Shown: positions 8,290-63,504 of the stretch, piece by piece
Numbering within the stretch: the first letter of the stretch is position 1
Layout of the letters: each line of letters starts with the position of its first letter
Source: Gemmatimonadota bacterium
Lineage (GTDB): Bacteria; Latescibacterota; UBA2968
Length of the DNA: 64,000 bases
Assembly (NCBI GenBank): GCA_026706845.1
Contig: JAPOXY010000135.1
Location: forward strand, 5,266 to 69,265
Direction of reading: 5' to 3'
Program-made: the position numbers and the translations under genes
Notes under the pieces: model-generated
Told to the model about the DNA's origin: nothing
What the model saw: only the letters and a program-made list of their open reading frames with translations
Database searches by the model: none

Positions 8290-9132
8290 TCAGGTGAGGT
8301 AGTGCGAGGGTGTCCTGAATTCGTGAGATTTCTCGTATTCGCTCGAGGGCTCCGCATCCCGAACTGCTTCGGGTACGTCACCGTCCCACCAACTTGGGGG
8401 ATTGGGAAAGGAAAAGACGTCGTGCCAGGCAAGGAGTAGAGTTCGGCGTTTAGCCGTTTGGTTGGGCCACGCGCCGTGGAGGATGCGCGCGTCTGCGATG
8501 ACCAGATCTCCTGCGTTTAAGGGGATGTCTATCGCATCGGGGTAGTCTGCGAACGCGGGATGCGATAGGTCGTCGATCGCCTGAATCTCCGATCCGTGAG
8601 CTTTGGGCAGGATGTCGTGCAGTTTGTGGCGTTTCCGATGGCTGCCGGGGATCATGCGCAGGCATCCATTCTCGCGCGTGGTGTCCGTCAGGTAGTAAGA
8701 TAAGAAGATGCGTATCGGCCAGGGCGTCGCGGCTTCGGGGCTCTGCCACTTCATGAAGTCCTGATGCCAGTAGAGGGGCGGGCCATATCCGGGCTTGGAC
8801 AGGATGATCACGGTGTCGTCTGCCACGAGATTCTCGAGCCCAATTTGTCGGCAGGCTTCGAGTTGTGCAGGCTGATCGATGATCTCCGCGGCGATCGGAT
8901 CGGGAAACCGATTCTCGGCTGTCGGCGTTCCCTCACGCCATCGGCGTTCCGTGTTGACGAAGATATCGCTGCCCTGGTACCGGATCTTGTGGGGAACTGT
9001 CACGCGTTCGAAGATGCGGTCGGACCATGTCCTGAGCCTGTGCAGCAGATCCGTATCCATCACACCAGGTACGATGGTGTAGCCCGACTCGACCAACTCT
9101 CGCCGCTTTGTCAGCGCCTGCTCATTCGTCAT
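8290..9132 (-). CDS. PhyH-family Fe(II)/2-oxoglutarate dioxygenase (paralog 1 of 9).
   Basis: 'YWHQDFMKW' (H-x-D facial triad) and the later 'ARILHGAWPN' second His. N-terminal 'LVESGYTIVPGVMD' is the PhyH-family start motif. AAAGGA Shine-Dalgarno upstream. Confidence 0.8.
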   Translation of the reverse strand: MTNEQALTKRRELVESGYTIVPGVMDTDLLHRLRTWSDRIFERVTVPHKIRYQGSDIFVNTERRWREGTPTAENRFPDPIAAEIIDQPAQLEACRQIGLENLVADDTVIILSKPGYGPPLYWHQDFMKWQSPEAATPWPIRIFLSYYLTDTTRENGCLRMIPGSHRKRHKLHDILPKAHGSEIQAIDDLSHPAFADYPDAIDIPLNAGDLVIADARILHGAWPNQTAKRRTLLLAWHDVFSFPNPPSWWDGDVPEAVRDAEPSSEYEKSHEFRTPSHYLT

Positions 9133-9312
9133 GTCTCAATCCTTTCGGTTATCAGGGATATTATACCTAATTATGCGAGCTTTTGTTCAAAAAATATGTC
9201 GGTTGCACGATGGATCAAAAACATGGCAGCAGGCTCGTCAAAAGTCAGTTGGTAGTCAACGCCATCGAGCGTATCTTCAATGAGCCGTCTTCAGCCATTG
9301 AGGAGGTCAACT

Positions 9313-11166
9313 ATGAAAGCGGATACAGAACTCCGCAAACAGCACCAGCGTGATGCGATCCTTCGAGATCGTATGCGGAAGGCATTTGACATGGCGTACG
9401 ACACGGATGCTGCGCTCATCGTCCGCTGGAATCCGTTCTTTCCCCGTTTCAACGGCCATACCATCGCCCAGCAATCCCTGGACTACGCCATCCTCCTGCT
9501 TCTGTCCGACGACCGCACCTACGGGACGGACGATGCCGGTGAGGCCAACCGTATCATTCGCCGAATCCTGGACCACCAGGACCTACGACCGAAGTCCGAG
9601 ACCTTCGGCAATTTCTTCTGGATGACCCATTGGGACCGGGTTAAAGACAAGAACGCCGTTTCCTTCCTCACGATCGGCCTGGTCTTCACGTACGTCAACT
9701 TCCAGGACAAGCTGGAGGATGACACAAAGGCTGCGCTCGAGCGCGCCTTTCCAAACGCGTTGCTCGGCATCCGTGACCACAAAGTCCGATGGCAGTACAC
9801 CAACATCTACTTTCTCAACCTCGGCGGCCTGGTCAGTCTTGCCCGTGTGCTGGACGATCCATCGATCCACGCCGAAGCGGTGGCCGACTTCAACACCTGG
9901 GTCGAAGGCACTTCGGAGGACGGCTTCCACGAATTCAACAGCCCGACGTACACACCCGTCACGCTCTCAGGTATGGAAGCGGCGTGGGCTTACACGTCAG
10001 ATGACGAGTTCAAAGACAGACTGCGGCGCACTATGGATTTGATAACCTATCAGATGGCGCTCAACCTGATGCCCGGTGGATTTCTGGCGGGTGCTGCCGC
10101 AAGGGCTTACCAGGGAGATGTGCTGAACGGTTCAATCGGGGCTGCTTCGTATGCCCACGTTAAATTCGGCACCCCTGCTCCGGCCGAGCTTGCGGTCCTG
10201 ATGCCGAGCCTGTTCGACTACGTACCGCCGGAACCTGTTCGGTCCCTGGCGAACGAGATGGCGGACGGAGCCGAGATACTCGATCGGGGAATCTCGCTGG
10301 GTAGCCGACGAACCCACGTCATTACGCAGGCTTACGGGCTGGCATCTCAGAGTTTACAATCTGTGGGCGGCCACTCGCCTCCGTCGTATATCCTGCTGGT
10401 CCGGAACAGCAAGGCCCCGCGACCCAGTGTCCCGTTCCTTCCGGACGAATCCTTTATGCATCAGCCGTGCGCCACATTCCTGTCGCGTCAGAACGGCAGT
10501 CAGGTGATCGGCAGACTGTACTACGATCTGCAGGAGGAGCAACGAAGCAAATTTCTGGACGATCCTACGTTCATTTGTGAACCTCGCGTCCTGTTCGGAC
10601 TAAGGGACCAGATCGAGTCCGTTCGCATCGGCAATGTAGATTGGGGCGGAAAACCCGTGAGCCTTTTGCCAGGGCAATCCGTGGCTGTTTCCTATGGAGA
10701 CATCTACCTGGGTGTTGTCGTCTTGGTGCTAGACTGCGACGGTCAAGCGATTCGTAGCCGCGCGACGCTGGTCTATGGCGAAGATGGTGAACTGCGCCTG
10801 CGAATCAGGCTCCACGGGGGAGAGGACGTGCAGCAGGAAGATAACCCGCTCGTCGCTCTGCTCTACGTCGAAGTTCAGATTCCCGAGGAGAGACATTCGC
10901 TCGAGACATTTGCCGACCAATTGTCGGGCTGGCAGCTTTCCGATCAGAGCGACGGAGAGACGGTCTCCTTCTTGGCCGAGCACGAAGATGGCGCAACCAT
11001 CGCCTATCCCTACACAGAGGCGGATCCGGATCCGATGGGCGATGCGCTGCACCTATCGCCCGGGCTTGTGCTTCAGCCGGGAGATTTTGTCAAGCTGGTG
11101 AACGGGGAGAAGCCTTTGTTCTTCGACTCTGCACAGCAAAACCGGCTTCTTCGAGAAGGTGTATGA
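9313..11166 (+). CDS. Hypothetical cytoplasmic protein, member of a 3-gene paralog family with 43419..46088 and 46451..48550. Possibly polysaccharide lyase / heparinase II/III-like.
   Basis: The track ORF starts at 9280, but a GAGGAGG Shine-Dalgarno precedes the ATG at 9313 (MKADTEL...). Shared block 'HEFNSPTYTPVTLSG...FKDRLRRTMDLITYQMALNLMPGGFLAG' vs 'LENGSPTYMKYTISY...LKKKIGMFLDLMWADWAQLQIAGLRGG' in the 46451 protein. Confidence 0.6.
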   Translation: MKADTELRKQHQRDAILRDRMRKAFDMAYDTDAALIVRWNPFFPRFNGHTIAQQSLDYAILLLLSDDRTYGTDDAGEANRIIRRILDHQDLRPKSETFGNFFWMTHWDRVKDKNAVSFLTIGLVFTYVNFQDKLEDDTKAALERAFPNALLGIRDHKVRWQYTNIYFLNLGGLVSLARVLDDPSIHAEAVADFNTWVEGTSEDGFHEFNSPTYTPVTLSGMEAAWAYTSDDEFKDRLRRTMDLITYQMALNLMPGGFLAGAAARAYQGDVLNGSIGAASYAHVKFGTPAPAELAVLMPSLFDYVPPEPVRSLANEMADGAEILDRGISLGSRRTHVITQAYGLASQSLQSVGGHSPPSYILLVRNSKAPRPSVPFLPDESFMHQPCATFLSRQNGSQVIGRLYYDLQEEQRSKFLDDPTFICEPRVLFGLRDQIESVRIGNVDWGGKPVSLLPGQSVAVSYGDIYLGVVVLVLDCDGQAIRSRATLVYGEDGELRLRIRLHGGEDVQQEDNPLVALLYVEVQIPEERHSLETFADQLSGWQLSDQSDGETVSFLAEHEDGATIAYPYTEADPDPMGDALHLSPGLVLQPGDFVKLVNGEKPLFFDSAQQNRLLREGV

Positions 11167-11757: not shown

Positions 11758-13392
11758 TTAGTGAATGCCAAACCAGAACAGATCACGTGGAGAAACAGGA
11801 TAATCCTGGCGGATAATCTGTTCCATCAGGCGATCTTTCATCTCCCGGCGTAAAGCGGCATGCTCCGGATCGTTGACAAGATTCTTCTGCTCGTCCGGAT
11901 CCGCCTCGAGGTCGAATAGCTGCTCGCCGTGTCTATCGGGATAAAACGTGTATCGGTATCTGGATGTGCGTACGGTGCGCGCCCAGGCTCCCAGAGTCCC
12001 TGGACCGAAGCATGGAAAAGATTCAACATACGCCTCATCCCGCCAATCGTCCGGCACCTCTCCACGGCAAAGCTCGACCAATGACCTTCCTGAAACTGCT
12101 GGCGCACTGTCGTCCAGGCGGCCACCAAAATGGCGAAAACGCAGGTGAGGCAGGGGCACGCCGGTCATGTTGAGAATAGTGGGACAGATGTCTTCCAGTT
12201 GCACGATTTCCTGGCATATGGCGTTCTTCTTCAGGCCGGGACCCACAATGATTAGTGGCACCCGAATACCGCCATCGTAGTGGCGCTCCTGTTTTTGCCA
12301 GAAGCCGTGATCACCGAGAAATTCACCGTGATCAGACACAAAAATGATGTACGTGTTGTCAAGACGCCCAGCGTCTTGCAAAGCCTTCCTGACCCGACCC
12401 AGTTGTTCGTCCAGGTGGGTAATGTCGGCGAAGTAGCAATGACGCTCATGGCTGAGATCCGGTATCAGGGGGGGCTGTCCATCCGAACCGGATGTAACAG
12501 CTATATCTTTCATCCAAGATGGTCGGTCGTCGCTCTCTCCGTGCAACACCCGCGCCATTTTCCGAAAATATTCGGGTGCGTCAGTATCGTTAAGCCAATC
12601 CGCGGGGACTGGAGCAGGGATTTTCTCCGGGTTGACGCGGTCCATGAATTCGCCTGGGGGACAAAACGGGCCGTGGGGTGCCACGTAGCTGATATGGGCA
12701 AAGAAAGACTGCTCCGAATGGGTGTCGCGGATGAAATTCAGCGCCCTTGCGGTTATCCACGATGACTGCGATACCTCCTCGGGAAACGGCAGCGTATAGG
12801 CCTTGGGAGAGTTCCTGGGCCACGTCTCGGTGGGGTGTGGATAACGCTCTTTAGCGGCGCGTATGGCCGGTCTCAGATCGACGCCGTCGGGACCGTATTC
12901 GGCGTAACCCGGAACAGCGGGCCAGGCCGTTGAAAGGGCCGCTTCATAATGTTCAGGATGCGCCTCTTTGACCCAGTCGAGCCACTCGCCAGCGCGGTCA
13001 TCCTCAGTGCCGTGTACGACATCGAAACCATAGGGGTGGTAGTTGTGTACGAGGCTTTCGTGATGCGGCCTGAGGTGCAGCTTTCCGAAAGCGCCAGTCC
13101 GCCACCCTTCCTTTTGCAGCGCTTGCATAAAGGTCGGAATGGCGGGATTGAGCGCGTACCCGTTCATGATCAAACCATGCGCTCTCGAACAAAGCCCGGT
13201 GGCAATCGTTGCACGGGTAGGTGAGCATACCGGATTGCTGGAGAATGTCCGGGTAAAGGACGTGCCGTTTTCACGCAGCCAGTCCAGGTTCGGCAAGGCA
13301 CAGATTCCTTTGTCCCGAGCCACTTCGAGCCACCTGGCCGACAACTGGTCAACCATAAAAAGGATAACGTTGGGTTTGTTTTGTGACTGCAT
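11758..13392 (-). CDS. Formylglycine-dependent sulfatase (S1 family), no signal peptide.
   Basis: 'PNVILFMVDQLSARW' metal site and 'CSPTRATIATG' (C-x-P-x-R formylglycine motif). Paralog of 21446..23017. Confidence 0.9.
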   Translation of the reverse strand: MQSQNKPNVILFMVDQLSARWLEVARDKGICALPNLDWLRENGTSFTRTFSSNPVCSPTRATIATGLCSRAHGLIMNGYALNPAIPTFMQALQKEGWRTGAFGKLHLRPHHESLVHNYHPYGFDVVHGTEDDRAGEWLDWVKEAHPEHYEAALSTAWPAVPGYAEYGPDGVDLRPAIRAAKERYPHPTETWPRNSPKAYTLPFPEEVSQSSWITARALNFIRDTHSEQSFFAHISYVAPHGPFCPPGEFMDRVNPEKIPAPVPADWLNDTDAPEYFRKMARVLHGESDDRPSWMKDIAVTSGSDGQPPLIPDLSHERHCYFADITHLDEQLGRVRKALQDAGRLDNTYIIFVSDHGEFLGDHGFWQKQERHYDGGIRVPLIIVGPGLKKNAICQEIVQLEDICPTILNMTGVPLPHLRFRHFGGRLDDSAPAVSGRSLVELCRGEVPDDWRDEAYVESFPCFGPGTLGAWARTVRTSRYRYTFYPDRHGEQLFDLEADPDEQKNLVNDPEHAALRREMKDRLMEQIIRQDYPVSPRDLFWFGIH

Positions 13393-13423: not shown

Positions 13424-14578
13424 TTAGTCGATAATCTTTGTTCCTACAGTCATTTTATTTATTGCATCCCAATTCCACTCTACGCCCATCCCGGGTCCAT
13501 CTGGTACATCTACATTACCATCTGCATCCACTGCTTCAAGACCATCCTCATATCCTTCGAGAAAAATGTCAGAAGTCAGTTGCAAACATTCTGTATCGGG
13601 ATGGACCCAAACCATTTCATAATAATTCGAATTGCCTATGGCAGACATCACATGTCTTTGCGCTGGGCCAACGCCGTGAATTTCAATATCTGCGCCTACC
13701 GTTTCAGCCGCTGACGCCAGTTTCTTCGTTCCCGTGATTCCATCTCCATTTACATTGCCCCTGATAAAATCTGTCGATCCGGACAACAGCATATTCATCT
13801 TTCCAGAGATACCCGTAACTTTTTCCCCTTGAAGAAGTGGTGTATCGAGAAACTCTTTTAGTCTCTGGTGTCCGTTCTCAGTCGTGCCGTCCCCAACAAA
13901 ATAAGGATCCTCTATCCAATAAAAACCGGCTTCATCGCAGGCCCTTCCAACCTTTAAAGCATCCGCAAATGTTGAATAATAGTTAAATGCATCCAGCATT
14001 AAATCCATCTTTCCTCCGACTCTATCGGCCACAGCGTGTATCAAGTTTATATGGTCTTGAATATCAGGTCTGGGGAATGGATGGATCTTAAATCCTTTAT
14101 AACCGATTTCTAAGCATTGTTCAGCAAAATCAGCGTACGATTCTGGCGTGGATAAGCCCCCTTTTAATCCTTCTTCTCCTCCGTTCATCGTACTGGCATA
14201 AGCGGGCAATTTTTTTCTATATCCTCCCAATAACTCAGATACGGAGAGGTCCGTCATTTTTCCAAGGATATCCCATAATATGATGTCAACAGATGCGTGC
14301 AACCCACCCAGATGAAACGTATTGAAATCTTGCCATATTTCTTCCCTTGCAAGCGGATTTCGTCCCAATAAGTCGTGAGCAATGCGAGAAATATCATGGC
14401 TAATCGGATAGGTTCCGACGACTCCACAATCAGTATAAATACTGGTCATGTGTTTACCCATTGAAAGATTCACGCCCGGGTTATAGGTCATCCACGAAGA
14501 ATATGTGCCAGGTCCACAATCTTTGATTTGCCACTGAATCCTTTTTATTTCAATCTTCTTTATTTTAGGCGATTTCAT
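13424..14578 (-). CDS. Enolase-superfamily (mandelate racemase/muconate lactonizing enzyme) sugar-acid dehydratase-like protein.
   Basis: 'KIHPFPRPD', 'MLDAFNYY' and 'FYWIEDP' metal-ligand blocks typical of MR/MLE acid-sugar dehydratases. AGGAGA Shine-Dalgarno before the internal ATG at 14578. The track ORF extends further, to 14638. Lower GC than its neighbours. Confidence 0.8.
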   Translation of the reverse strand: MKSPKIKKIEIKRIQWQIKDCGPGTYSSWMTYNPGVNLSMGKHMTSIYTDCGVVGTYPISHDISRIAHDLLGRNPLAREEIWQDFNTFHLGGLHASVDIILWDILGKMTDLSVSELLGGYRKKLPAYASTMNGGEEGLKGGLSTPESYADFAEQCLEIGYKGFKIHPFPRPDIQDHINLIHAVADRVGGKMDLMLDAFNYYSTFADALKVGRACDEAGFYWIEDPYFVGDGTTENGHQRLKEFLDTPLLQGEKVTGISGKMNMLLSGSTDFIRGNVNGDGITGTKKLASAAETVGADIEIHGVGPAQRHVMSAIGNSNYYEMVWVHPDTECLQLTSDIFLEGYEDGLEAVDADGNVDVPDGPGMGVEWNWDAINKMTVGTKIID

Positions 14579-14717
14579 TTCTATCTCCTGGTCTGAAACC
14601 ATCGCAGGAAAGACAGTTAGCTTTAGCAGGTTTTTCAATCAACCTGCATAGGTAACGGTTAAACGTTGACAAATAACCTTATACTGAGTATGGACTTGAC
14701 CCGTTTTGGTGAGTATC

Positions 14718-15656
14718 TTATGCTGATTTTCCGGGCGGGCAGATCGCGTCTATTTTTTTCAGAGTAGCTTGATCGAGTTCGCCGTCGGCAGCGGCAGCGT
14801 TCTGTTTTGCCTGCTCGGGTGTCTTCATTCCGGGAATGGGACAGGTGACGGCAGGATTGGCGAGGGTGAACTTGAGCGCGAGATCAACCATGTTCAGGCC
14901 TTCGGGTACTAACTCGCGCAGTGCCGCAACCTTGTCGAGTTTGGCGAGGAAATCATCGCGTTGACTTCCCCCTGGATTCCAGTGATCTCGAACCATGTCT
15001 TCAAACCTTGTATCTGCCGTGAATTTATCCGCCAAAAGACCCTGAGCGATTGGCCCTCGCAATAACACCCCGATATTGTTGTCCAGGCAGTAGGGGAGGA
15101 TGTCATTCTCAGGTCGCCGGTTAAGGAGCGAGTAGTTGATCTGACACGATGCACATGCGTCTCCTGAGTTGAGCGCTTTGAGCGAATCCAGGTCGTTGGT
15201 AGATATCGCGTAGTGACGGATCTTTCCCTCTTTCTTGAGCAACTCAAAGGCTTCGACAAAGATCTCGGGATGTTCTGGGGTTCCGATGTGACACTGATAC
15301 AGGTCGATATAGTCTGTATTGAGCCGGTAAAGGCTTGCGTGACAACAATTGATTATGCTGTATATCGTCTTGTACCCGAGGGGGTCTCCTTGACGGCGTC
15401 CCCAGTTGCCAACCTTTGTCGCGATATAGACCTCAGATCGCTTGCTTTTCAGCGCTTTGCCTGTATAGATTTCACTCTGACCACAACCGTAGCCATCAGC
15501 GGTATCAAACAAATTAACGCCCGCGTCGAGGGCAGCGTTGATGGTGTCGAGGGCCTGCTTTTCTTCAACCGGACCCCACTGTCCGCCGATGCCCCAGCAT
15601 CCCATGGAGACAGCGCTTACATTCCACCCAGTTTTCCCAAGCGTTCTATACTGCAT
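14718..15656 (-). CDS. Aldo/keto reductase.
   Basis: 'YRTLGKTGWNVSAVSMGCWGIGGQWG...LDTINAALDAGVNLFDTADGYG' is the canonical AKR N-terminus. Confidence 0.85.
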   Translation of the reverse strand: MQYRTLGKTGWNVSAVSMGCWGIGGQWGPVEEKQALDTINAALDAGVNLFDTADGYGCGQSEIYTGKALKSKRSEVYIATKVGNWGRRQGDPLGYKTIYSIINCCHASLYRLNTDYIDLYQCHIGTPEHPEIFVEAFELLKKEGKIRHYAISTNDLDSLKALNSGDACASCQINYSLLNRRPENDILPYCLDNNIGVLLRGPIAQGLLADKFTADTRFEDMVRDHWNPGGSQRDDFLAKLDKVAALRELVPEGLNMVDLALKFTLANPAVTCPIPGMKTPEQAKQNAAAADGELDQATLKKIDAICPPGKSA

Positions 15657-15669
15657 GATATTCCTCCGT

Positions 15670-19104: not shown

Positions 19105-19235
19105 CGACTTCCTTAGACCAGGTCGCGTACAGTTCCCAGGCATTAATGCTTTTCATCTCTTATCCTGTCTCTGTGGATGTGTAAAAGGGCTGATCACGAT
19201 ATTCGGGTAGGAACCGCTGTTGTTATCACCCATCA

Positions 19236-20543: not shown

Positions 20544-20550
20544 AATGATC
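20497..20550. repeat. 54-nt segment spanning the start codon of sulfatase 19236..20543. It is 53/54 identical to 27220..27273, the 5' end of sulfatase 25881..27266.
   Basis: ccctgatcgtctgtaacaatgatgagaaaatttggttttgtg[g/c]ccataatgatc is present at both loci. The proteins diverge immediately after the encoded 'TKPNFLIIVTDDQGYGD'. Confidence 0.7.
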
Positions 20551-23017: not shown

Positions 23018-23044
23018 AAAATGTTCTTACCTCTATAGCAGAAA

Positions 23045-24391: not shown

Positions 24392-24404
24392 TGCGGTTCT
24401 CCTT

Positions 24405-25877: not shown

Positions 25878-25880
25878 CTC

Positions 25881-46088: not shown

Positions 46089-46101
46089 TATAAACACTCT
46101 G

Positions 46102-52762: not shown

Positions 52763-52916
52763 TTTGTGTTTTTCTATGAAGTGTTGCACAACGAAATATC
52801 TTGATTGAGGTTCATTTTTGTATGTACTATTATACCAGTAGTTCTACACTCACGTTGTCTTGCGCTACACCGATCCGGTAGCGCGGACTGAACTCGAAAC
52901 AATGGGAAGAATACAT

Positions 52917-55277: not shown

Positions 55278-55461
55278 AGCACCTAACTCCTTTCTGTCAT
55301 TGCGGTTTTCCTTCAGGTTGTTGGGATAAGGCATGTTAATACGTTAATCGCTTGCTGGCAATTCAATTTGCTGAGTGTTCTGAGCCTGATGTCAAAAAAA
55401 GCAGGGAGTTGACATTTCCTTTGCAGGGTTTGCGTGAATGCTCAAAATGTAGTCACAAAAA

Positions 55462-57928: not shown

Positions 57929-58735
57929 TTACTGGCTGAGGCACACCCGTTGTCGAGTGGCGATTTCCTTTTTGTCGGTGTAGTGCGCCGTTTCGAGCAA
58001 TTCGAGTGTTTCGGGCGCCAGCCGCTCTTTGACCGCCTCAGGAATGGGACGGCCGGGCTGGCGGTGGTGTGGGCGGTAGCGCAACGTTAACACCCGGCGT
58101 TGGCGATCGACGGGTTTCCAGGGCAGGACCCCGTGGGTAAGGCATTCGGGTATAATGACCACATCCCCAGCTGAGGGCGTGATATTGATGACTCCCAACG
58201 GTACTTCTCCTTCGATGCGACCCTGGGAAAATAGCTGCGGTGGCCGGTCAAACTGGCTTTTGTGCGAACCCGGGAGCACGAGGAGCCCGCCATCACCTGG
58301 ATGTACATCGTCCAGGTAGGGAAACACCACAAAGTCGTCGCAATAGATACGGCCCTGATGTATCTCGTAACGGGCGCTCTCAAAGCCGTAGTCGTCGCGG
58401 GCGCAGTGCAGCGGACTCGCCTCGGTGTGTCCGTCGGGATCGTCGACCATGAGGGTACCGCTGGCGAGCATAGGTTTGCCGTTTGTCAGCTCCAGCACGA
58501 TGGGCCAGACTGCGGGCAGAAAGACCAGATTTTCCAGCGCCCGGTCAAAGGCGAAGCCGTGAGCAAAGCCCTTGAGATTTTCTGATTGTCCGAAATGCGG
58601 CGGCAGGTCTTCCGGTGCGCTGTCGATGTAGCGCCTGGCAGCCTCCGAAGCCGCATCCAGTTCCTCCGGAGTCAGGACGTTCTTCAGGTGCAGAAAACCG
58701 CATAGATCAAAAAGATAGCGTTGTTCTTCGGTCAT
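57929..58735 (-). CDS. PhyH-family Fe(II)/2OG dioxygenase (paralog 9).
   Basis: 'LFDLCGFLHLKNVLTPEEL', 'PLHCARDDY', 'ECLTHGVLPW'. Confidence 0.75.
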   Translation of the reverse strand: MTEEQRYLFDLCGFLHLKNVLTPEELDAASEAARRYIDSAPEDLPPHFGQSENLKGFAHGFAFDRALENLVFLPAVWPIVLELTNGKPMLASGTLMVDDPDGHTEASPLHCARDDYGFESARYEIHQGRIYCDDFVVFPYLDDVHPGDGGLLVLPGSHKSQFDRPPQLFSQGRIEGEVPLGVINITPSAGDVVIIPECLTHGVLPWKPVDRQRRVLTLRYRPHHRQPGRPIPEAVKERLAPETLELLETAHYTDKKEIATRQRVCLSQ

Positions 58736-59015: not shown

Positions 59016-60062
59016 ATGGCTGATCCCAAAATCCTGGTGCTGGGCGGTCCCGAGCGCGATCTCTATCTGGCCCCGGCCGATCTGGAGCGCCTGGATAGCT
59101 TTGCGAATTGGACATGGCTCCCCTGTGAAGCGGGTCAGGTCCAGTCCGGTCACCAGACCGAATTGTCGCGACGGCTGGCGTCCGTCCAGGCCCTGGTCGT
59201 CTATTCGGGGGCGCCCCATATCGGCCCCGAACTCATGGAACAGGCCCCCGAGCTACGCCTCATCGGCGAATTGAACGGCGATCGTTTCGCCGAGCGCATC
59301 GACGTGGAGGCGGCCTGGCAACGGGATATCCGCGTTGTTGACACCACCAATGGCTCGTCCTACCCTGTCTCTGAGTGGGCCCTGGGCCTTATTCTCGTAT
59401 CGTTGCGCAACGCCGGTTATTATCTGCGCCGCTACATGGAGGGAAATTGCCGCAAAACCCGCGACAACCCCAGCTTCCTGCGCGGCGAATTAACCGGCAA
59501 GACCGTGGGACTGATCGGCTGCGGCCATGCCGGCCGTCGCCTAATAGAATTGCTGCGCCCTTTCCGGGTCGCCATTCAGGTTTACGACCCCTACCTGCCT
59601 GGAACCATGGCCGAAGCTCTGGGCTTTCTCCTGACCTCACTCGAACAGGTCCTGTCGAGCTCCGATGCGATTGTCTGTCTGGCCCCGCAGACCCCCGGGA
59701 CCCAGGGCATGATCGGTCGGGCAGAACTGGATCTGATCCCCTCGGGGGCTGTACTGGTCAACGTCTCCCGCGGTCCCATCATTGATTCGGTCGCCCTGGT
59801 CGAACGCCTCAAGCGCGGCGATATTATCGCTGGCCTCGATGTTTTCGACCCCGACCCTATCCCCGACGGCCACGAAATAACCGGGCTGGACAATGTATTC
59901 CTTACGCCCCATATCGCCGGCGTCACCCGGGCCGCCTACTGGCGCTTTTTCGAGCTGATGGTGGACGAACTGGACCGCTTTTTCCACGGCTTTGAGCCCT
60001 ATTTCGAATTGACCCAGCGCACCCTGGACGACCGCAGTGGCCGTCGCCCCGCCACTTATTAA
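59016..60062 (+). CDS. D-isomer-specific 2-hydroxyacid dehydrogenase (NAD-binding) family protein.
   Basis: Rossmann 'GKTVGLIGCGHAGRRL', 'LVNVSRGPIID', 'LDVFDPDP', 'FLTPHIAG'. AGGAGG Shine-Dalgarno. Confidence 0.85.
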   Translation: MADPKILVLGGPERDLYLAPADLERLDSFANWTWLPCEAGQVQSGHQTELSRRLASVQALVVYSGAPHIGPELMEQAPELRLIGELNGDRFAERIDVEAAWQRDIRVVDTTNGSSYPVSEWALGLILVSLRNAGYYLRRYMEGNCRKTRDNPSFLRGELTGKTVGLIGCGHAGRRLIELLRPFRVAIQVYDPYLPGTMAEALGFLLTSLEQVLSSSDAIVCLAPQTPGTQGMIGRAELDLIPSGAVLVNVSRGPIIDSVALVERLKRGDIIAGLDVFDPDPIPDGHEITGLDNVFLTPHIAGVTRAAYWRFFELMVDELDRFFHGFEPYFELTQRTLDDRSGRRPATY

Positions 60063-61127: not shown

Positions 61128-62588
61128 TCACGGTTTTTGCACGACAAATTCCGGCCGTGGAATCATGCGTTCTGGATTCCGTTCGTAACCTCGTTTCCAC
61201 AACTCCTCCACAAGCCTTCCACTTTTAGCCAGTTCTTCGCGAAGCGCCTGCTGGTCCGCCTTTGCCCTCTGATCAATCGCTTCCGGGCAGCACACCTGGT
61301 ATAGAATTCGCCGAAGCCGAGCCAGTTTCTGAGACGCCTCGGGACGCTCCGCAAGATCTTGCATCTCCAAAGGATCCTCTGCAAGGTCAAACAACATCGG
61401 TCTTTCCCCAACGCACGCCACATATTTATCTGAACCCGATCGAAGAGCAAATGCGCTTCCCGGAAGGCCCGGCCCATGGAATTCACTGATCGCGAATTCG
61501 GGAAGCGCTGCACCCGGTTCGCCCCTCAAGGATCCCAGCAAGGATGTCCCCCGCATGTGTGTTGGTGAAGGCAATTCCAGGGCTTCCGAGAATGTCTGGA
61601 AAAGATCGAGATGTGAAACGGGTGCAGGCTCGGACCCTCCTGACTCTATGCCGGGTCCAGCCACGATCATGGGTACGCGAATTGAATCCTCATACATCGA
61701 TCCCATTCCGGAATTGCGATGTGCCCCCATGCTGCCACCGTGATCCGAAGCATAGGCGACCAGCGTCGAATCCCAGAGATTCTCGGTGTCTATGGCTCTG
61801 AGCACGCGTCCCACGTTGCGATCTGCCATCTCACAGATGCCGTGGTAGCCTACCAGACCACGGCGCAACTCTTCGGGTGTGCAAAGATCGCTGCACGTGT
61901 AACGAACAAAATCCCGGTGAAAGGGGTGTAGTCGAGAAATGGGTTCCGAGTAGCGCTCGTCCAGGTCTTCGGTTCGCACCAGCGGATCGTAGTAATCCCA
62001 TAGCTCCTGTGGCGGATTCCATCCGGGATGGGGCTGTTTGATATTCACGATCAGGACCCAGGGGCGATCTTGCGGGCGTTCATTCATCAGCCACTGTACC
62101 GCTTCTTGCGCGACCTGCGCGTCGTGCTGGTGTTCCCCACGCCCACTTGCAGGACCCGCTTCCCGCAATCGATGCAGGTGGTGGTATCGGGGTTGCACAC
62201 GGCCCTCTTCGAACAGCGTGTGTACGTCCAGACTCTCCCGTGTCTTGGCCAGACGACTGTCTTCCACTCCAGCATCACTGCCCGGTTTGTAATCGAGCTT
62301 GCCAATGGTCGTAAGCACGACACCATTTTCTGCAAAGTAATGCCCCCAGCCTCTGGGCACTCCTGAATAGGGAAACGCATTGTCCCAGGTGGAGATCTCG
62401 TGGACATACCGTCCCGCCATCATCGCTCCCCGCGAAGGCGCGCACAGAGGACTTGGACAATAGGCACTGTCGAATCTCTTTCCTCGCCTGGCGAGCGCAT
62501 CGATGTGAGGCGTACGGGTAATGGGACTACCGTAACAACCAGAAAACTCAGGGTTGTGCCGATCGGTCATGATATAAACGACATTCAT
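61128..62588 (-). CDS. Formylglycine-dependent sulfatase, no signal peptide.
   Basis: 'MNVVYIMTDRHNPEFSGCYG', 'CAPSRGAMMAG'. GAGGTGA Shine-Dalgarno before the ATG at 62588. The track ORF extends to 62792. Confidence 0.9.
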   Translation of the reverse strand: MNVVYIMTDRHNPEFSGCYGSPITRTPHIDALARRGKRFDSAYCPSPLCAPSRGAMMAGRYVHEISTWDNAFPYSGVPRGWGHYFAENGVVLTTIGKLDYKPGSDAGVEDSRLAKTRESLDVHTLFEEGRVQPRYHHLHRLREAGPASGRGEHQHDAQVAQEAVQWLMNERPQDRPWVLIVNIKQPHPGWNPPQELWDYYDPLVRTEDLDERYSEPISRLHPFHRDFVRYTCSDLCTPEELRRGLVGYHGICEMADRNVGRVLRAIDTENLWDSTLVAYASDHGGSMGAHRNSGMGSMYEDSIRVPMIVAGPGIESGGSEPAPVSHLDLFQTFSEALELPSPTHMRGTSLLGSLRGEPGAALPEFAISEFHGPGLPGSAFALRSGSDKYVACVGERPMLFDLAEDPLEMQDLAERPEASQKLARLRRILYQVCCPEAIDQRAKADQQALREELAKSGRLVEELWKRGYERNPERMIPRPEFVVQKP

Positions 62589-62625
62589 CGAAGTCACCTC
62601 GTTGCGAGTTGTCAATGGCGGCATC

Positions 62626-63504
62626 TTAAGCCGTTGGAACATATCCCAGTTGATCGTTATATGCCACAGCTTCGGGAAAGGTCTCGTGAAGGTGGTCGAG
62701 AACCCTATCAATCTTACACCTGCACAAAGAGCTGGGATAGGGCATCTCGCCGGTACGCCGGAAAAATGCCCCGTTCTTTTCGTGAAAATCACCCCGCCGG
62801 TCCATGAACTGCCCCCAGTGTCCCATCGTGTATCGCATCTCTGTCCTTCTCTCAGCGCTCTGAATCCAGGCGTCGGGAAACAGCATTTGAAACCGCGGTG
62901 CCGAATTCAACCAACTGCCGCATCGAACCACTTTTACTTCCGGCCGACGTACTTGCGAATCTCTGAGCAGCCTGATTAGCGATGCCGCAAACTGTATGTG
63001 CATATCACTGAGGGGAGATTTTGGCTGGTAAACATTGGCAATATGAAGACTCAACGAGTCCTCGTGCTTGTAGTCATAATTCCAACATTCGTGTGAACGA
63101 TCGCCAGGTCCGGGCTGTTCATTGCCCAACTTGCGAATGCGCGCTTCCATAAGTGGCCAGAGGATCGCAAGTCCCCTGATCTCCACGGATTCACTATCAT
63201 TACCATACTTGTCGAAGATTTCTCCCAACTGCCCTACAATGACGTTCCATTCGAGATCTTCGTCTCCCGCTGCCGGATGGTGGTTGCCGTTGTAGAGTGA
63301 GGTATTCCGGTACAGATTGACTCGCACGTTAACGGTATCTTCCAGGTCTCCAGGGTTTTCCCGCAGCCGTTTGTTCGCGTACCAAAGGCTCAACCGGGTG
63401 AATTCCCGAACATAATGCACGCGAATCGGATCCAGATTGGACATTGATTCTACCCCCGTTGTTCGTATTGGGTTAATCTTTTCCTCTGCCGGATTTTGCG
63501 CCAT
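62626..63504 (-). CDS. Hypothetical protein (292 aa).
   Basis: Long ORF with moderate-GC codon usage. No recognisable motif. Confidence 0.45.
   Translation of the reverse strand: MAQNPAEEKINPIRTTGVESMSNLDPIRVHYVREFTRLSLWYANKRLRENPGDLEDTVNVRVNLYRNTSLYNGNHHPAAGDEDLEWNVIVGQLGEIFDKYGNDSESVEIRGLAILWPLMEARIRKLGNEQPGPGDRSHECWNYDYKHEDSLSLHIANVYQPKSPLSDMHIQFAASLIRLLRDSQVRRPEVKVVRCGSWLNSAPRFQMLFPDAWIQSAERRTEMRYTMGHWGQFMDRRGDFHEKNGAFFRRTGEMPYPSSLCRCKIDRVLDHLHETFPEAVAYNDQLGYVPTA

What the first reader, a model, noticed from the sequence alone, without database searches (positions are those of the whole stretch)
8290..62792. Nine PhyH-family Fe/2OG dioxygenase paralogs systematically interleaved and co-transcribed with 13 cytoplasmic sulfatases
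Within 64 kb there are 13 S1 sulfatases and 9 PhyH-like dioxygenases. Each dioxygenase has an identifiable H-x-D...H triad and the shared N-terminal 'G(Y/F)(L/V)(V/I)...' block. Several pairs are translationally tight. PhyH 20549..21391 stops 5 nt before sulfatase 19236..20543. PhyH 30509..31603 heads a seven-gene sulfatase operon. PhyH 37399..38253 follows sulfatase 38285..39895 by 31 bp. No other oxygenase family is present. Known Fe/2OG enzymes act on sulfate esters (the alkylsulfatase AtsK releases sulfate by alpha-hydroxylation) or hydroxylate sugars (KdoO). The repeated pairing suggests a dioxygenase step is integral to desulfation or processing of a sulfated substrate. Possible roles are oxygenolytic cleavage of sulfate esters inaccessible to hydrolytic sulfatases, or hydroxylation of the desulfated sugar. 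This sulfatase-PhyH partnership appears uncharacterised biochemically.
Basis: partly seen in the sequence, partly recalled or inferred. Interest (0 to 1): 0.8.

Follow-up and report, generated by a model that had tools for sequence, protein, structure and literature searches.

The report
PhyH oxygenases inside a sulfatase island
A sponge-symbiont genome segment packs 13 cytoplasmic sulfatases together with nine very different iron/2-oxoglutarate oxygenases of unknown function.

Summary
The gene content is real. There are 13 Cys-type S1 sulfatases without signal peptides, one carrying a nonsense codon. There are nine PhyH-fold Fe/2OG oxygenases: eight pass Pfam's cut-off and one is sub-threshold. 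Seven have H-x-D…H. Two have the HygX-type H-x-G/A…E-x3-H triad. One is fused to a PL38-like uronate lyase.

The window comes from a sponge-associated Latescibacterota genome. Within the island the interleaving is not above chance: 4 of 9 PhyH touch a sulfatase against 5.4 expected. The real signal is co-enrichment of both families.

Across genomes, tight PhyH–sulfatase operons recur. Examples are a Poribacteria PhyH–GFO/IDH/MocA–PhyH–PhyH–sulfatase operon, a Chloroflexota ABC-transporter operon and a Tara Oceans array. However, orthologues in Spirochaetia, Gemmatimonadota and most plankton contigs lack sulfatases. After de-replication only PhyH–PhyH clustering stays significant.

The closest characterised relatives (HygX, EvdO2) oxidise oligosaccharides. 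AtsK and KdoO belong to other families.

Best reading: these are accessory, carbohydrate-directed oxygenases in a cytoplasmic pathway for sulfated glycans. The exact reaction is unresolved. The PhyH expansion in sponge symbionts was already published in 2014; I found no paper describing the link to sulfatases and oxidoreductases.

The parts
8290..9132 (-). PhyH paralog 1 (280 aa), H-Q-D...H triad. Best PDB relative is EvdO2.
   Evidence: Pfam PF05721 E 1e-27. Triad in alignment A1. EvdO2 4xab E 6.6e-13.
15670..16518 (-). PhyH paralog 2 (282 aa), H-R-D...H. Lies 13 nt upstream of an aldo/keto reductase gene.
   Evidence: Pfam E 7.9e-11. Alignment. Gaps. PDB best hit SptF/EasH, 1e-8.
20549..21391 (-). 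PhyH paralog 3 (280 aa), H-R-D...H. Its stop codon lies 5 nt before the sulfatase 19236-20543 start.
   Evidence: Pfam E 5.6e-16. H113/D115/H192 are invariant in the family alignment A2. Adjacency to a sulfatase is kept in 10 of 14 Latescibacterota loci.
30509..31603 (-). PhyH paralog 4 (364 aa, with insertions), H-I-D...H. First gene of the long minus-strand run.
   Evidence: Pfam E 1.6e-7. Alignment. Promoter-like site 31688-31660. No PDB sequence match.
36555..37322 (+). PhyH paralog 5 (255 aa from the ATG at 36555; the ORF extends to 36405), H-I-D...H. The only PhyH on the + strand.
   Evidence: Pfam E 4.9e-6. Alignment.
37399..38253 (-). PhyH paralog 6 (284 aa), H-R-D...H. Lies 31 nt downstream of sulfatase 38285-39895.
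   Evidence: Pfam E 5.9e-16. Alignment. PDB best hit TlxI, 1.9e-7.
48569..50803 (-). Fusion protein (744 aa): an N-terminal PL38-like alginate/glucuronan-lyase domain (aa 32-390) and a C-terminal PhyH domain (aa 452-675, H-G-D...H). No signal peptide.
   Evidence: Pfam PF05426 4e-86 plus PF05721 1.4e-17. PDB 3nfv 8e-89 and 8bdq 3e-63. Both domains are present in 36 listed clusters, down to 67% identity.
54351..55334 (-). PhyH paralog 8 (327 aa), HygX-type triad H-G-G...E-A-L-C-H. Below the Pfam threshold.
   Evidence: Pfam 16.3 bits against a cut-off of 22. HygX 4xcb E 1.1e-4, with 'PHGGS' aligned to HygX 'LHGGN'. 26% identical to 57929-58735.
57929..58735 (-). PhyH paralog 9 (268 aa), HygX-type variant triad H-C-A...E-C-L-T-H.
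   Evidence: Pfam E 2.2e-9. H110/A112/R113 are nearly invariant and E197/H201 invariant in 28 homologues. AlphaFold2 model pLDDT 92. Foldseek top hit HygX, E 1.3e-14.
11758..13392 (-). S1 sulfatase (CSPTR), no signal peptide.
   Evidence: Pfam PF00884 6e-41. Motif. 50% identical to the sulfatase of the Chloroflexota operon L093.
19236..20543 (-). S1 sulfatase (CAPTR), tightly coupled to PhyH 20549-21391.
   Evidence: Pfam 8.6e-57. Motif. 5-nt gap.
21446..28846 (-). Five consecutive S1 sulfatase genes: 21446-23017, 23045-24391, 24405-25877 (C-V-A-S-R variant), 25881-27266 and 27368-28846.
   Evidence: Pfam PF00884 1e-42 to 5e-54. Motifs. Gaps 3-101 nt.
33453..36345 (-). Two S1 sulfatases: 33453-34880 and 34999-36345.
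   Evidence: Pfam 5e-55 and 1e-57. Motifs CTPSR and CCPAR.
38285..39895 (-). S1 sulfatase (CTPCR), upstream of PhyH 37399-38253.
   Evidence: Pfam 1e-28..
39917..41907 (-). Sulfatase with a C-terminal HEAT-repeat domain. The gene is interrupted by a TAA codon at 41843-41845, so it is a pseudogene or a sequence error.
   Evidence: Pfam Sulfatase plus HEAT_2. In-frame stop, and an intact orthologue 65% identical in L093.
52860..54326 (+). S1 sulfatase (CQPSR), convergent with PhyH 54351-55334.
   Evidence: Pfam 8.6e-50..
61128..62588 (-). S1 sulfatase (CAPSR).
   Evidence: Pfam 7.6e-39..
13424..15656 (-). Sugar-acid dehydratase-like enolase (13424-14638) and aldo/keto reductase (14718-15656), immediately downstream of PhyH 15670-16518.
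   Evidence: Pfam MR_MLE_C and Aldo_ket_red. NCBIfam weak matches to talarate, galactarate and gluconate dehydratases.
16558..19143 (-). 861-aa right-handed beta-helix protein, possibly a lyase or hydrolase. No signal peptide.
   Evidence: Pfam Beta_helix..
28958..30427 (-). 489-aa protein of unknown family with a signal-peptide-like N-terminus.
   Evidence: No Pfam or NCBIfam match. Hydrophobic N-terminus.
31871..33415 (+). Secreted (alpha/alpha)-toroid protein, PL2 pectate-lyase-like / C5-epimerase-like.
   Evidence: Pfam Pectate_lyase_2 1e-19 and C5-epim_C. Signal-peptide-like N-terminus.
41972..43399 (-). BNR_4 beta-propeller protein.
   Evidence: Pfam PF15892 2.7e-13.
50828..52789 (-). 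Secreted PL4-like (rhamnogalacturonan-lyase-like) protein, directly upstream of the lyase-PhyH fusion.
   Evidence: Pfam CBM-like, fn3_3 and RhgB_N. Signal-peptide-like N-terminus.
59016..60062 (+). D-2-hydroxyacid dehydrogenase, divergent from PhyH 57929-58735.
   Evidence: Pfam 2-Hacid_dh_C 1.2e-44. The same family also lies near the PhyH array of L175.

Best explanation
The window is part of a catabolic island of a sponge-associated Candidatus Latescibacterota bacterium.

Proposed pathway:
1. A few secreted lyase-like proteins attack an acidic, sulfated glycan outside the cytoplasm.
2. The fragments are imported.
3. In the cytoplasm they are processed by 12-13 different Cys-type sulfatases, by a PL38-like uronate lyase, and by nine anciently diverged PhyH-fold Fe(II)/2-oxoglutarate oxygenases (at most 26% identical to each other).

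Proposed role of the oxygenases: they are accessory, carbohydrate-directed enzymes, each with its own substrate. Using O2 and 2-oxoglutarate, each abstracts a hydrogen from a sugar C-H next to a heteroatom substituent that hydrolases cannot remove or reach. That substituent could be an O-methyl ether, a secondary sulfate ester, an amino group or a glycosidic oxygen. The hydroxylated carbon collapses, releasing the substituent and leaving a carbonyl. Neighbouring NAD(P)-dependent oxidoreductases (aldo/keto reductase, 2-hydroxyacid dehydrogenase; GFO/IDH/MocA in other genomes) would then reduce that carbonyl.

Sulfatases and PhyH enzymes are therefore members of the same pathway, not obligate one-to-one partners.

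Shown here: the gene families, the metal-binding motifs, the cytoplasmic location, the lyase fusion, the recurring operons and the nearest structural relatives.

Inferred: a carbohydrate substrate, the hydroxylation-elimination chemistry and the follow-up reduction.
For: Family membership and probable activity:
- Pfam PhyH in 8 of 9.
- H-x-D...H in 7 and the HygX-type H-x-G/A...E-x3-H in 2. The latter motif is conserved across 28 homologues and matches the published HygX motif (PMC13374393).
- High-confidence model of 57929-58735 (pLDDT 92), with HygX as the top structural match.

Link to carbohydrates:
- 8290-9132 is closest to EvdO2, and 57929-58735 and 54351-55334 are closest to HygX. Both are oxygenases that act on oligosaccharides next to a glycosidic linkage.
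- One paralog is fused to a PL38-like uronate lyase (8e-89 to 3nfv). The fusion is conserved down to 67% identity.
- Homologues elsewhere sit beside GFO/IDH/MocA, ThuA, AKR, SDR, GH43, rhaM, sugar-acid dehydratases, lactonases, and Opp-type and MFS sugar transporters.
- PF05721 enzymes, including one from Poribacteria, demethylate 2'-O-methyl ribose (PMC12709175).

Shared pathway with sulfatases:
- 14 of 14 related Latescibacterota loci keep sulfatases and further PhyH genes within 10 kb of the 20549-21391 orthologue. Three of them (L016, L018, L042) have no sulfatase directly next to it (nearest about 1.08 kb away on the opposite strand) and still hold 2-4 sulfatases and 3 further PhyH.
- A compact Poribacteria operon PhyH-GFO/IDH/MocA-PhyH-PhyH-sulfatase lies between housekeeping genes.
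- The Chloroflexota locus L093 combines orthologues of four window genes with an ABC importer.
- Tara Oceans locus L177 has seven PhyH, a sulfatase, ThuA, GFO/IDH/MocA and rhaM on one strand.

Location:
- No signal peptides on any PhyH or sulfatase. Three lyase-like or unknown proteins do have them.
Against: - No substrate or activity is known for any of the nine. None reaches an NCBIfam equivalog cut-off, and PDB relatives are distant (15-23% identity).
- The nearest relatives are biosynthetic enzymes, not catabolic ones.
- No Pfam glycoside hydrolase and no importer lies in the window. The substrate could be something other than a glycan: by NCBIfam the sulfatases score best, all below cut-off, against arylsulfatase and choline-sulfatase models.
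- The PhyH-sulfatase association is not significant after de-replication.
- The island-level co-occurrence could reflect two independently expanded families.
- The 20549-21391 model is of mediocre quality around its H-x-D loop.
Confidence: 0.5

Rival explanations
1. One reading: the PhyH enzymes are dedicated partners of the sulfatases and cleave sulfate esters oxygenolytically. They would hydroxylate the ester carbon, as AtsK does, releasing sulfate and a keto-sugar at positions the hydrolytic sulfatases cannot reach.
For: - Tight junctions between PhyH and sulfatase genes in the window (5 nt and 31 nt), in Poribacteria (3-9 nt) and in Chloroflexota (overlapping genes).
- The neighbouring oxidoreductases could reduce the resulting keto-sugar.
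- The chemistry is feasible for Fe/2OG enzymes (AtsK precedent, from my own knowledge).
Against: - AtsK is a TauD-family enzyme, not PhyH. No TauD-family Pfam hit occurs in the window.
- Most homologues in other lineages have no sulfatase nearby.
- Adjacency within the island is at chance.
- Sulfatase-rich phyla surveyed in 2013 had less than 0.05% PhyH genes (PMC3909097).
- If PhyH removed sulfate themselves, 13 hydrolytic sulfatases would be partly redundant.
Confidence: 0.12
2. The PhyH enzymes are O-demethylases of methylated sugars. They would play the role that cytochrome P450 plays for 6-O-methyl-galactose in marine Bacteroidota, clearing methyl ethers that block the sulfatases, lyases and downstream enzymes.
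For: - PF05721 members, including a Poribacteria enzyme, were shown experimentally to demethylate 2'-O-methyl ribose nucleosides (PMC12709175).
- The enzymes are cytoplasmic, like the P450 system (the P450 comparison is from my own knowledge).
- Their genomic contexts are rich in carbohydrate genes.
Against: - No window paralog is more than 25% identical to the tested demethylases.
- Nine subfamilies here and about 2% of Poribacteria genes are far more than the known variety of sugar methyl ethers would need.
- The frequent oxidoreductase neighbours are not required for demethylation.
Confidence: 0.15
3. There is no shared pathway. PhyH genes and sulfatase genes are two independently expanded families in sponge symbionts, and they end up side by side because catabolic genes accumulate in the same flexible genomic islands.
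For: - PhyH is the most abundant Pfam family in Poribacteria and its members are highly diverse.
- Interleaving is at chance within the island.
- The cross-lineage sulfatase enrichment is not significant after de-replication (p = 0.38), while PhyH-PhyH clustering is.
Against: - The isolated five-gene Poribacteria operon has gaps of 3-27 nt and lies between housekeeping genes.
- The Chloroflexota operon places both families inside one ABC transporter gene cluster and shares four orthologous genes with the window.
- The 5-nt junction is conserved in 10 of 14 Latescibacterota loci.
Confidence: 0.18
4. The substrates are not glycans. They would be small sulfated sponge or plankton metabolites such as sterol sulfates, aryl or alkyl sulfates, or choline-O-sulfate-like compounds. 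The sulfatases would remove the sulfate and the PhyH enzymes would hydroxylate the aglycone.
For: - The sulfatases score best against arylsulfatase, choline-sulfatase and PehA models, all below cut-off.
- All are cytoplasmic.
- Many solved PhyH-fold relatives act on terpenoids, alkaloids or amino acids.
- Opp-type importers lie nearby in other genomes.
Against: - The PL38-like lyase fusion.
- The secreted PL2-like and PL4-like proteins, the sugar-acid dehydratase and the AKR in the window.
- GH43, rhaM and ThuA beside homologues.
- HygX and EvdO2 as the nearest relatives of three paralogs.
Confidence: 0.1
5. The PhyH enzymes mature the sulfatases. They would hydroxylate the beta-carbon of the active-site cysteine to generate formylglycine, replacing FGE or anSME, neither of which is encoded in the window.
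For: - No FGE or radical-SAM maturase was found among the window ORFs.
- The chemistry (hydroxylation next to a heteroatom, then elimination) is formally possible. This is inference only.
Against: - One maturase would serve all C-x-P-x-R sulfatases; nine paralogs at most 26% identical are not needed.
- Most PhyH arrays elsewhere have no sulfatase within 10 kb.
- The nearest relatives act on small molecules, not proteins.
- A maturase may simply be encoded elsewhere in the genome.
Confidence: 0.02

Closest known systems
Orthosomycin oxygenases HygX, EvdO1/EvdO2 and AviO1 (PhyH-fold Fe/2OG enzymes; PDB 4xc9, 4xca, 4xcb, 4zpi, 4xab, 4xbz, 4xaa)
   Same: - They are the best PDB sequence hits for three paralogs: 8290-9132 to EvdO2 at 6.6e-13, 57929-58735 to HygX at 1.7e-8, and 54351-55334 to HygX at 1.1e-4.
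- HygX is the best structural hit of the 57929-58735 model.
- The two HygX-like paralogs share HygX's unusual relocated carboxylate, H-x-G/A...E-x3-H.
- These enzymes bind oligosaccharides and abstract hydrogen next to a glycosidic linkage.
   Different: - Identity is only about 20%.
- The known enzymes are biosynthetic: they form orthoesters in actinomycete antibiotic gene clusters. The window genes lie in a catabolic island with sulfatases and lyases.
- 57929-58735 has Ala where HygX has Gly.
- No orthoester chemistry is implied here.
The phyH-domain expansion in Poribacteria (Kamke et al. 2014, PMC3909097)
   Same: Same Pfam family and same ecological guild of sponge symbionts. The paper reports very many, highly diverged paralogs of unknown function. 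Homologues of the window genes occur in Poribacteria MAGs.
   Different: The paper does not connect phyH genes to sulfatases, oxidoreductases or lyases; it proposes phosphonate use (PhnY-like) for a few of them. The window is from Latescibacterota, not Poribacteria.
PHYHD1/FJS 2'-O-methyl nucleoside demethylases (PF05721; PMC12709175)
   Same: Same family, and a demonstrated oxidative removal of an O-methyl group from a sugar hydroxyl. One active enzyme came from Poribacteria.
   Different: At most 25% identity to any window paralog. The substrate there is a nucleoside, and the genes lie in no sulfatase or lyase context.
KanJ/KanK (kanamycin B dioxygenase plus NADPH reductase) and SnoK/SnoN
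   Same: These are PhyH-fold enzymes acting on sugar rings. In KanJ/KanK the oxygenase makes a keto-sugar that a partner reductase reduces (from my own knowledge). This resembles the recurrent pairs of PhyH with AKR or GFO/IDH/MocA seen here. Sequence hits are weak.
   Different: The matches are very weak (E 0.01-5e-4). The known enzymes are biosynthetic. Amino-sugar deamination here is speculative.
AtsK alkylsulfatase, and KdoO
   Same: Both are Fe/2OG enzymes. AtsK shows that hydroxylation can release sulfate from an ester.
   Different: AtsK belongs to the TauD family and KdoO to its own family (from my own knowledge). The window proteins match only PF05721. They are analogies of mechanism, not relatives.
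Ectoine hydroxylase EctD (PF05721; TIGR02408)
   Same: Same Pfam family and canonical triad. It is the weak best NCBIfam hit for two paralogs.
   Different: Scores of 38 and 25 bits against a cut-off of 336.5. There are no ectoine genes nearby.

Membership tests
PhyH family (Pfam PF05721) | Whole-protein score above Pfam's gathering cut-off (22 bits) | tested here: met
   Eight of nine score 27-98 bits. 54351-55334 scores 16.3 bits and fails, but is tied to the family through 57929-58735 (26% identity, E 5e-18) and HygX.
Fe(II)/2OG oxygenases, canonical | H-x-D/E...H facial triad | tested here: met
   Met by seven paralogs in alignment A1. H113/D115/H192 are invariant in 16 homologues of 20549-21391. 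Not met by 57929-58735 and 54351-55334.
Fe(II)/2OG oxygenases, HygX-type variant | H-x-G with the relocated carboxylate E-x3-H | tested here: met
   54351-55334 has H-G-G and E-A-L-C-H. 57929-58735 has H-C-A (Ala, not Gly) and E-C-L-T-H; H110/A112 are nearly invariant and E197/H201 invariant in 28 sequences. Metal binding itself was not tested.
Fe(II)/2OG oxygenases | Basic residue after the distal His that binds the 2-oxoglutarate C5 carboxylate | tested here: inconclusive
   All nine have an Arg 9-13 residues after the distal His in alignment A1. Its position in three dimensions was not examined.
Fe(II)/2OG oxygenases | 2-oxoglutarate-dependent turnover of a substrate | not testable with these tools
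   Needs enzyme assays.
AtsK / TauD family (Pfam PF02668) | Match to the TauD family model | tested here: not met
   No TauD hit for any of about 40 window proteins.
Ectoine hydroxylase (TIGR02408 equivalog) | Score above the curated cut-off of 336.5 bits | tested here: not met
   Best scores are 38.1 and 25.1 bits.
PHYHD1/FJS-type sugar O-demethylases | Close sequence relationship to enzymes with demonstrated activity | tested here: not met
   At most 25% identity; best E 1.9e-13 (37399-38253 against the Poribacteria enzyme).
S1 formylglycine-dependent sulfatases | PF00884 domain plus the C/S-x-P-x-R maturation motif | tested here: met
   All 13 hit PF00884. Twelve have C-x-P-x-R and one has C-V-A-S-R. 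One gene carries a nonsense codon. Formylglycine formation was not testable.
PL38-like polysaccharide lyases | Sequence similarity across the whole (alpha/alpha) barrel to solved members | tested here: met
   Residues 32-390 against 3nfv at 8e-89, and against 8bdq/9fh* at about 1e-63. That 8bdq is a PL38 enzyme is from my own knowledge. Catalytic residues were not checked.
Operon (co-transcription) claim | Same strand, short gaps, no internal terminator, and a transcript | tested here: inconclusive
   Gaps of 3-111 nt over 14 large ORFs (31603 down to 11758). There is one promoter-like site upstream of 31603. Terminator-like sites are all inside genes and occur at chance frequency. No RNA data.

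The most novel reading that the evidence does not exclude
PhyH-fold Fe/2OG oxygenases form a widespread, uncharacterised oxidative branch of marine glycan catabolism, found in sponge symbionts and also in planktonic bacteria. Working in the cytoplasm with formylglycine sulfatases and GFO/IDH/MocA-type reductases, they would remove groups that hydrolases cannot. The candidate reactions are oxygenolytic desulfation, O-demethylation, deamination, or (for the HygX-type members that attack the anomeric C-H) oxidative cleavage of glycosidic bonds. The last option would also explain why the island has no recognisable glycoside hydrolase.
Probability: 0.3. Interest if true: 0.85.

Novelty: new variant of a known kind. 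Interest (0 to 1): 0.6.

Why it matters
PF05721 is the most abundant protein family in Poribacteria genomes, and its role has been open since 2014.

This analysis places its members in recurrent operons with cytoplasmic sulfatases, NAD(P) oxidoreductases, a uronate lyase (as a fusion) and sugar importers. It also finds that the nearest characterised enzymes work on oligosaccharides. Together these give a concrete, testable hypothesis for that role.

If the enzymes do remove sulfate, methyl or amino groups, or cleave glycosides oxidatively, they would add an O2-dependent step to the turnover of sulfated glycans in sponges and the ocean, and a new enzyme class for glycan tailoring.

If they do not, the window is simply a large sulfatase island from a genome rich in PhyH genes.

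Tried and rejected
- Strict pairing inside the island: rejected by permutation.
- Conserved PhyH 20549-21391 / sulfatase synteny across phyla: found only in Latescibacterota. It is absent in 15 Spirochaetia loci and in the 59-77% identical homologues examined.
- Fusion context: two divergent fusion orthologues have no sulfatase within 10 kb.
- Structure of 20549-21391: pLDDT 73.5, with the H-x-D loop disordered. The fold search returned only generic PhyH-fold hits.
- Halogenase reading of the H-x-G/A paralogs: set aside, because both keep the relocated Glu of HygX (E-x3-H), conserved family-wide. Not excluded biochemically.
- Relationship to the tested 2'-O-methyl demethylases: at most 25% identity.
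- NCBIfam naming of the PhyH and sulfatase genes: nothing reaches a cut-off.
- PDB and family searches for the large unknown ORFs 43419-46259 and 46451-48550: no matches.
- Promoter and terminator scans: chance level.
- Rfam and tRNA scans: nothing found.
- Literature on a PhyH-sulfatase link: none found.
- A genome-wide background for Latescibacterota could not be computed, because only 20-kb loci are retrievable.
- No PhyH-sulfatase fusion protein appeared among the listed homologues.

Full report
**What is in the window**

Thirteen ORFs carry the S1 sulfatase domain PF00884. They lie at 11758-13392, 19236-20543, 21446-23017, 23045-24391, 24405-25877, 25881-27266, 27368-28846, 33453-34880, 34999-36345, 38285-39895, 39917-41782, 52860-54326 and 61128-62588.
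- All are Cys-type. Twelve have C-x-P-x-R and 24405-25877 has C-V-A-S-R.
- In 12 of the 13 the catalytic domain starts within about 10 residues of a plausible start codon. The exception is 39917-41782, whose N-terminus is lost to a nonsense codon. None of the 13 has a hydrophobic signal-like N-terminus.

Eight ORFs pass Pfam's cut-off for PhyH (PF05721): 8290-9132, 15670-16518, 20549-21391, 30509-31603, 36405/36555-37322, 37399-38253, 57929-58735 and the C-terminal half of 48569-50803.
- The ninth, 54351-55334, reaches only 16.3 bits against a cut-off of 22.
- It is nevertheless 26% identical to 57929-58735 and hits the same solved structure.

No other oxygenase family, no tRNA and no Rfam family is present.

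**Metal-binding motifs**

In the alignment of the nine, the N-terminal G-[YFW] block and the distal His are invariant.
- Seven paralogs have H-x-D.
- Two do not. 57929-58735 reads P-L-H-C-A-R-D-D, and 54351-55334 reads K-P-H-G-G-S-G.
- Both keep a Glu four residues before the distal His (E-C-L-T-H and E-A-L-C-H).
- Their best and almost only PDB hit is HygX (4xc9/4xcb; E 1.7e-8 and 1.1e-4). HygX is the hygromycin B orthoester-forming oxygenase.
- A 2026 review describes the HygX triad as H-X-G...E-X3-H, with a relocated acidic ligand (PMC13374393).
- Among 28 homologues of 57929-58735, H110, A112 and R113 are nearly invariant and E197 and H201 invariant.
- An AlphaFold2 model (pLDDT 92) finds HygX as the top Foldseek hit (E 1.3e-14, TM 0.66-0.68).

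These two paralogs are therefore HygX-type variants rather than dead enzymes. The claim that 'each has H-x-D...H' is wrong in detail, but the broader claim that all nine look catalytically competent stands.

**Diversity of the paralogs**

The nine are at most 26% identical to one another, so they are ancient subfamilies and not recent tandem copies. The sulfatases are likewise 24-46% identical.

None of the nine reaches a curated NCBIfam cut-off; the EctD model scores 38 bits against 336.

By sequence, 8290-9132 is closest to EvdO2 (6.6e-13), another oligosaccharide oxygenase of orthosomycin biosynthesis. The others hit assorted natural-product oxygenases weakly or nothing.

**The fusion protein**

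48569-50803 is a 744-aa fusion.
- Residues 32-390 match the solved 'alginate lyase family' proteins 3nfv (8e-89) and 8bdq/9fh* (about 1e-63). I recognise the latter as PL38 glucuronan/alginate lyases; that assignment is from my own knowledge.
- Residues 452-675 are a PhyH domain with H-G-D...H.
- The two-domain architecture is present in 36 listed clusters down to 67% identity, named by their sources as Latescibacteria and Gemmatimonadetes.

This is Rosetta-stone-type evidence that at least this PhyH domain works on a uronate-containing glycan or its product.

**Origin of the window**

The exact PhyH 20549-21391 protein lies on a scaffold whose assembly label (ROBB21-1) I read as a sponge metagenome; that reading is an inference from the label, not a sample record. 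A scan of GTDB species genomes returns 88-96% identical loci in Candidatus Latescibacterota MAG chromosomes.

Homologues at 67-72% identity occur in Spirochaetia MAGs and at 41-80% in Poribacteria. A few occur in Gemmatimonadota, Planctomycetota, Anaerolineae and a Paenibacillus.

Kamke et al. 2014 already reported that PF05721 is the most abundant Pfam family in Poribacteria. It accounts for more than 1.9% of genes, against less than 0.05% in every other genome then available, with 305 sequences in 193 clusters. Function was unknown apart from a PhnY-like case. The paper does not mention sulfatases in this connection.

**Is the arrangement more than chance?**

Nine PhyH among about 41 genes is far above even the Poribacteria frequency (binomial P = 6.5e-8). 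The co-enrichment of both families in one island is therefore real.

The 'systematic interleaving' is not. Among the 36 genes of the island, four PhyH touch a sulfatase (five junctions). Shuffled gene orders give 5.4 and 6.5 on average (P(>=observed) = 0.91 and 0.86).

The tight junctions quoted are correct (5 nt and 31 nt). The minus-strand run from 31603 down to 11758 comprises 14 large ORFs with gaps of at most 111 nt. There is a promoter-like site at 31688-31660 and no intergenic terminator-like site. Both scans are at chance frequency, so co-transcription is plausible but unproven.

**Does the link hold elsewhere?**

I built HMMs from the window's sulfatases and PhyH genes and scanned all fetched loci.

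Where the link holds:
- Latescibacterota: 14 of 14 loci have sulfatases within 10 kb (2.4 per 10 kb). Ten of 14 keep a sulfatase directly next to the 20549-21391 orthologue. In three others (L016, L018, L042) the nearest sulfatase lies about 1.08 kb away on the opposite strand; those loci still hold 2-4 sulfatases and 3 further PhyH genes.
- Poribacteria: 15-17 loci share a compact operon. In L062 it reads PhyH (8017-9006), GFO/IDH/MocA (9017-9967), PhyH (9995-10819), PhyH (10823-11569), sulfatase (11579-13072). The gaps are 10, 27, 3 and 9 nt, and the operon lies between trpD/trpC and MacB/LpxI housekeeping genes.
- Chloroflexota MAG locus L093: PhyH, sulfatase, PhyH, two permeases, PhyH, ATPase, PhyH, methyltransferase, ATPase, sulfatase+HEAT, SBP_bac_5. 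Four of these genes are 35%, 50%, 59% and 65% identical to window genes 8290-9132, 11758-13392, 57929-58735 and 39917-41782 respectively.
- Tara Oceans contig L177: seven PhyH, one sulfatase, ThuA, GFO/IDH/MocA and rhaM on one strand.
- Tara Oceans contig L175: a sulfatase, three PhyH, GH43, MFS transporters and a 2-hydroxyacid dehydrogenase.

Where it does not hold:
- None of 15 Spirochaetia loci has an adjacent sulfatase. One example has GFO/IDH/MocA and ThuA immediately upstream instead.
- Two divergent fusion orthologues have no sulfatase within 10 kb. One of them sits among GFO/IDH/MocA, lactonase-like, sugar-acid dehydratase and SBP_bac_5 genes.
- Of 33 marine metagenome loci of at least 8 kb around homologues of 57929-58735, only five hold any sulfatase and none is adjacent.

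Pooled over 146 non-Latescibacterota loci, sulfatase density is 0.69 per 10 kb within 1.5 kb of the central PhyH and 0.12 beyond (p = 2e-8). That signal comes from the repeated Poribacteria operon. With one locus per 70%-identity cluster (34 loci) it is 0.23 against 0.13 (p = 0.38).

PhyH-PhyH clustering survives de-replication: 3.5 against 0.29 per 10 kb (p = 1e-7).

The robust cross-lineage pattern is therefore arrays of different PhyH genes in carbohydrate-type neighbourhoods. Sulfatases are a recurrent but not obligatory member of those neighbourhoods.

**The rest of the island**

Only three proteins look secreted:
- an unknown 489-aa protein (28958-30427);
- a PL2/C5-epimerase-like toroid protein (31871-33415);
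- a PL4-like protein (50828-52789).

Other genes:
- a sugar-acid dehydratase-like enolase and an aldo/keto reductase directly downstream of PhyH 15670-16518 (13424-15656);
- a beta-helix protein;
- a BNR_4 propeller;
- a 2-hydroxyacid dehydrogenase divergent from PhyH 57929-58735;
- an alpha/beta hydrolase;
- an ECF sigma-ankyrin-ATPase-like fusion.

There is no Pfam glycoside hydrolase and no importer in the window. Four large ORFs match nothing.

**Most likely function**

I read the island as a cytoplasmic pathway for imported fragments of a sulfated, uronate-containing glycan. The PhyH enzymes would be accessory oxygenases, each specific for a different decoration or position.

The common chemistry I commit to is hydrogen abstraction and hydroxylation at a sugar carbon that bears a heteroatom substituent. 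The hemiacetal-like product then collapses, releasing the substituent and leaving a carbonyl. Neighbouring NAD(P) oxidoreductases would reduce that carbonyl.

This fits several observations:
- the oligosaccharide-oxidising nearest relatives (HygX, EvdO2);
- the lyase fusion;
- the repeated oxidoreductase neighbours;
- the published sugar O-demethylation by PF05721 enzymes, including one from Poribacteria.

Which substituent is removed is not resolved. No window paralog is close to the tested demethylases (at most 25% identity).

My confidence in the general model is about 0.5. The strict oxygenolytic-desulfation partnership gets about 0.12, pure co-location about 0.18, non-glycan sulfated metabolites about 0.1, and sulfatase maturation about 0.02.

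**Comparison with known systems, and novelty**

They are mechanistic analogies only.

The proteins are members of PF05721. Two belong to the HygX-type metal-site variant. None is a member of any functionally defined subfamily tested here.

The expansion of PhyH in sponge symbionts is published. The following did not turn up in eight full-text searches:
- the embedding of PhyH genes in sulfatase islands;
- the recurrent modules of PhyH, oxidoreductase and sulfatase;
- the PL38-PhyH fusion;
- the presence of HygX-type enzymes in catabolic contexts.

I rate this as a new variant of a known kind, with interest 0.6. It is a concrete lead on a long-standing 'most abundant family of unknown function', but the specific partnership claimed is only partly borne out and no reaction is established.

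Noticed in passing
window 57929-58735 (-) and 54351-55334 (-): Two PhyH paralogs lack H-x-D. They carry the rare HygX-type metal site instead (H-C-A / H-G-G plus E-x3-H). In the 57929-58735 subfamily this motif is conserved across 28 homologues. That subfamily has 870 database hits, including Tara Oceans, Chloroflexota, Gemmatimonadota and Planctomycetota sequences.
   Followed up: yes
window 48569-50803 (-): A 744-aa fusion of a PL38-like alginate/glucuronan lyase domain with a PhyH oxygenase domain, without a signal peptide. The architecture is present in 36 listed clusters down to 67% identity. In other lineages it stands outside sulfatase islands.
   Followed up: yes
window 41843-41845 (within the sulfatase+HEAT gene 39917-41907, -): An in-frame TAA replaces a Leu codon near the N-terminus ('SRAWK*CCYG' against 'LSAWHLGCYG' in the intact orthologue, 65% identical, of L093). 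This is a pseudogene or a sequence error. Both orthologues also have N-x-H-D where S1 sulfatases usually have the metal-binding D-D.
   Followed up: partly
window 24405-25877 (-): This sulfatase has C-V-A-S-R instead of the canonical C-x-P-x-R formylglycine motif.
   Followed up: no
window 55526-57799 (-): An unusual 757-aa protein combines ECF sigma-70 regions 2 and 4, ankyrin repeats and an ATP-synthase alpha/beta-like nucleotide-binding domain. It sits between two PhyH genes and may be a regulator of the island.
   Followed up: no
window 9280-11166 (+), 28958-30427 (-), 43419-46259 (-), 46451-48550 (-), 62626-63504 (-): Five sizeable ORFs (292-946 aa) have no Pfam or NCBIfam match; the two that were searched against the PDB (43419-46259 and 46451-48550) also found nothing. 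The island has no recognisable glycoside hydrolase, so these are candidates for unknown glycan-active enzymes. 28958-30427 has a signal-peptide-like N-terminus.
   Followed up: partly
L062 8017-13072 (Poribacteria MAG; similar architecture in 15-17 loci, e.g. L063-L066, L071, L072, L074-L077, L080, L081, L085, L086): A compact operon PhyH-GFO/IDH/MocA-PhyH-PhyH-sulfatase with gaps of 3-27 nt, flanked by tryptophan-biosynthesis genes and MacB/LpxI genes. It is the cleanest minimal PhyH-oxidoreductase-sulfatase module seen.
   Followed up: partly
L093 2094-16792 (Chloroflexota MAG GCA_039028975.1): Four PhyH, two sulfatases (one with a HEAT domain), a methyltransferase and a complete Opp/Dpp-type ABC importer lie on one strand. 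An aminoglycoside-N-acetyltransferase-like gene and a GFO/IDH/MocA gene lie upstream.
   Followed up: partly
L177 1-12657 and L175 467-13566 (Tara Oceans contigs): These are PhyH arrays in planktonic bacteria. L177 has seven PhyH with a sulfatase, ThuA, GFO/IDH/MocA and L-rhamnose mutarotase. L175 has three PhyH with GH43, MFS transporters, a 2-hydroxyacid dehydrogenase and a sulfatase.
   Followed up: partly
window 36555-37322 (+) and 37399-38253 (-): The otherwise conserved P-G-S-H motif reads P-G-S-P in 36555-37322 and P-G-S-N in 37399-38253. The triad residues themselves are intact.
   Followed up: no
window 11090-11683 (-): A short ORF with a sub-threshold match to the xylose-isomerase-like TIM barrel (AP_endonuc_2, 27.8 bits against a cut-off of 31.1). 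It overlaps the 3' end of 9280-11166 and may be a gene fragment.
   Followed up: no
window 2442-8161 (-): An RND efflux system (AcrB-like pump, HlyD-like adaptor, outer-membrane factor) forms the left border of the island.
   Followed up: no
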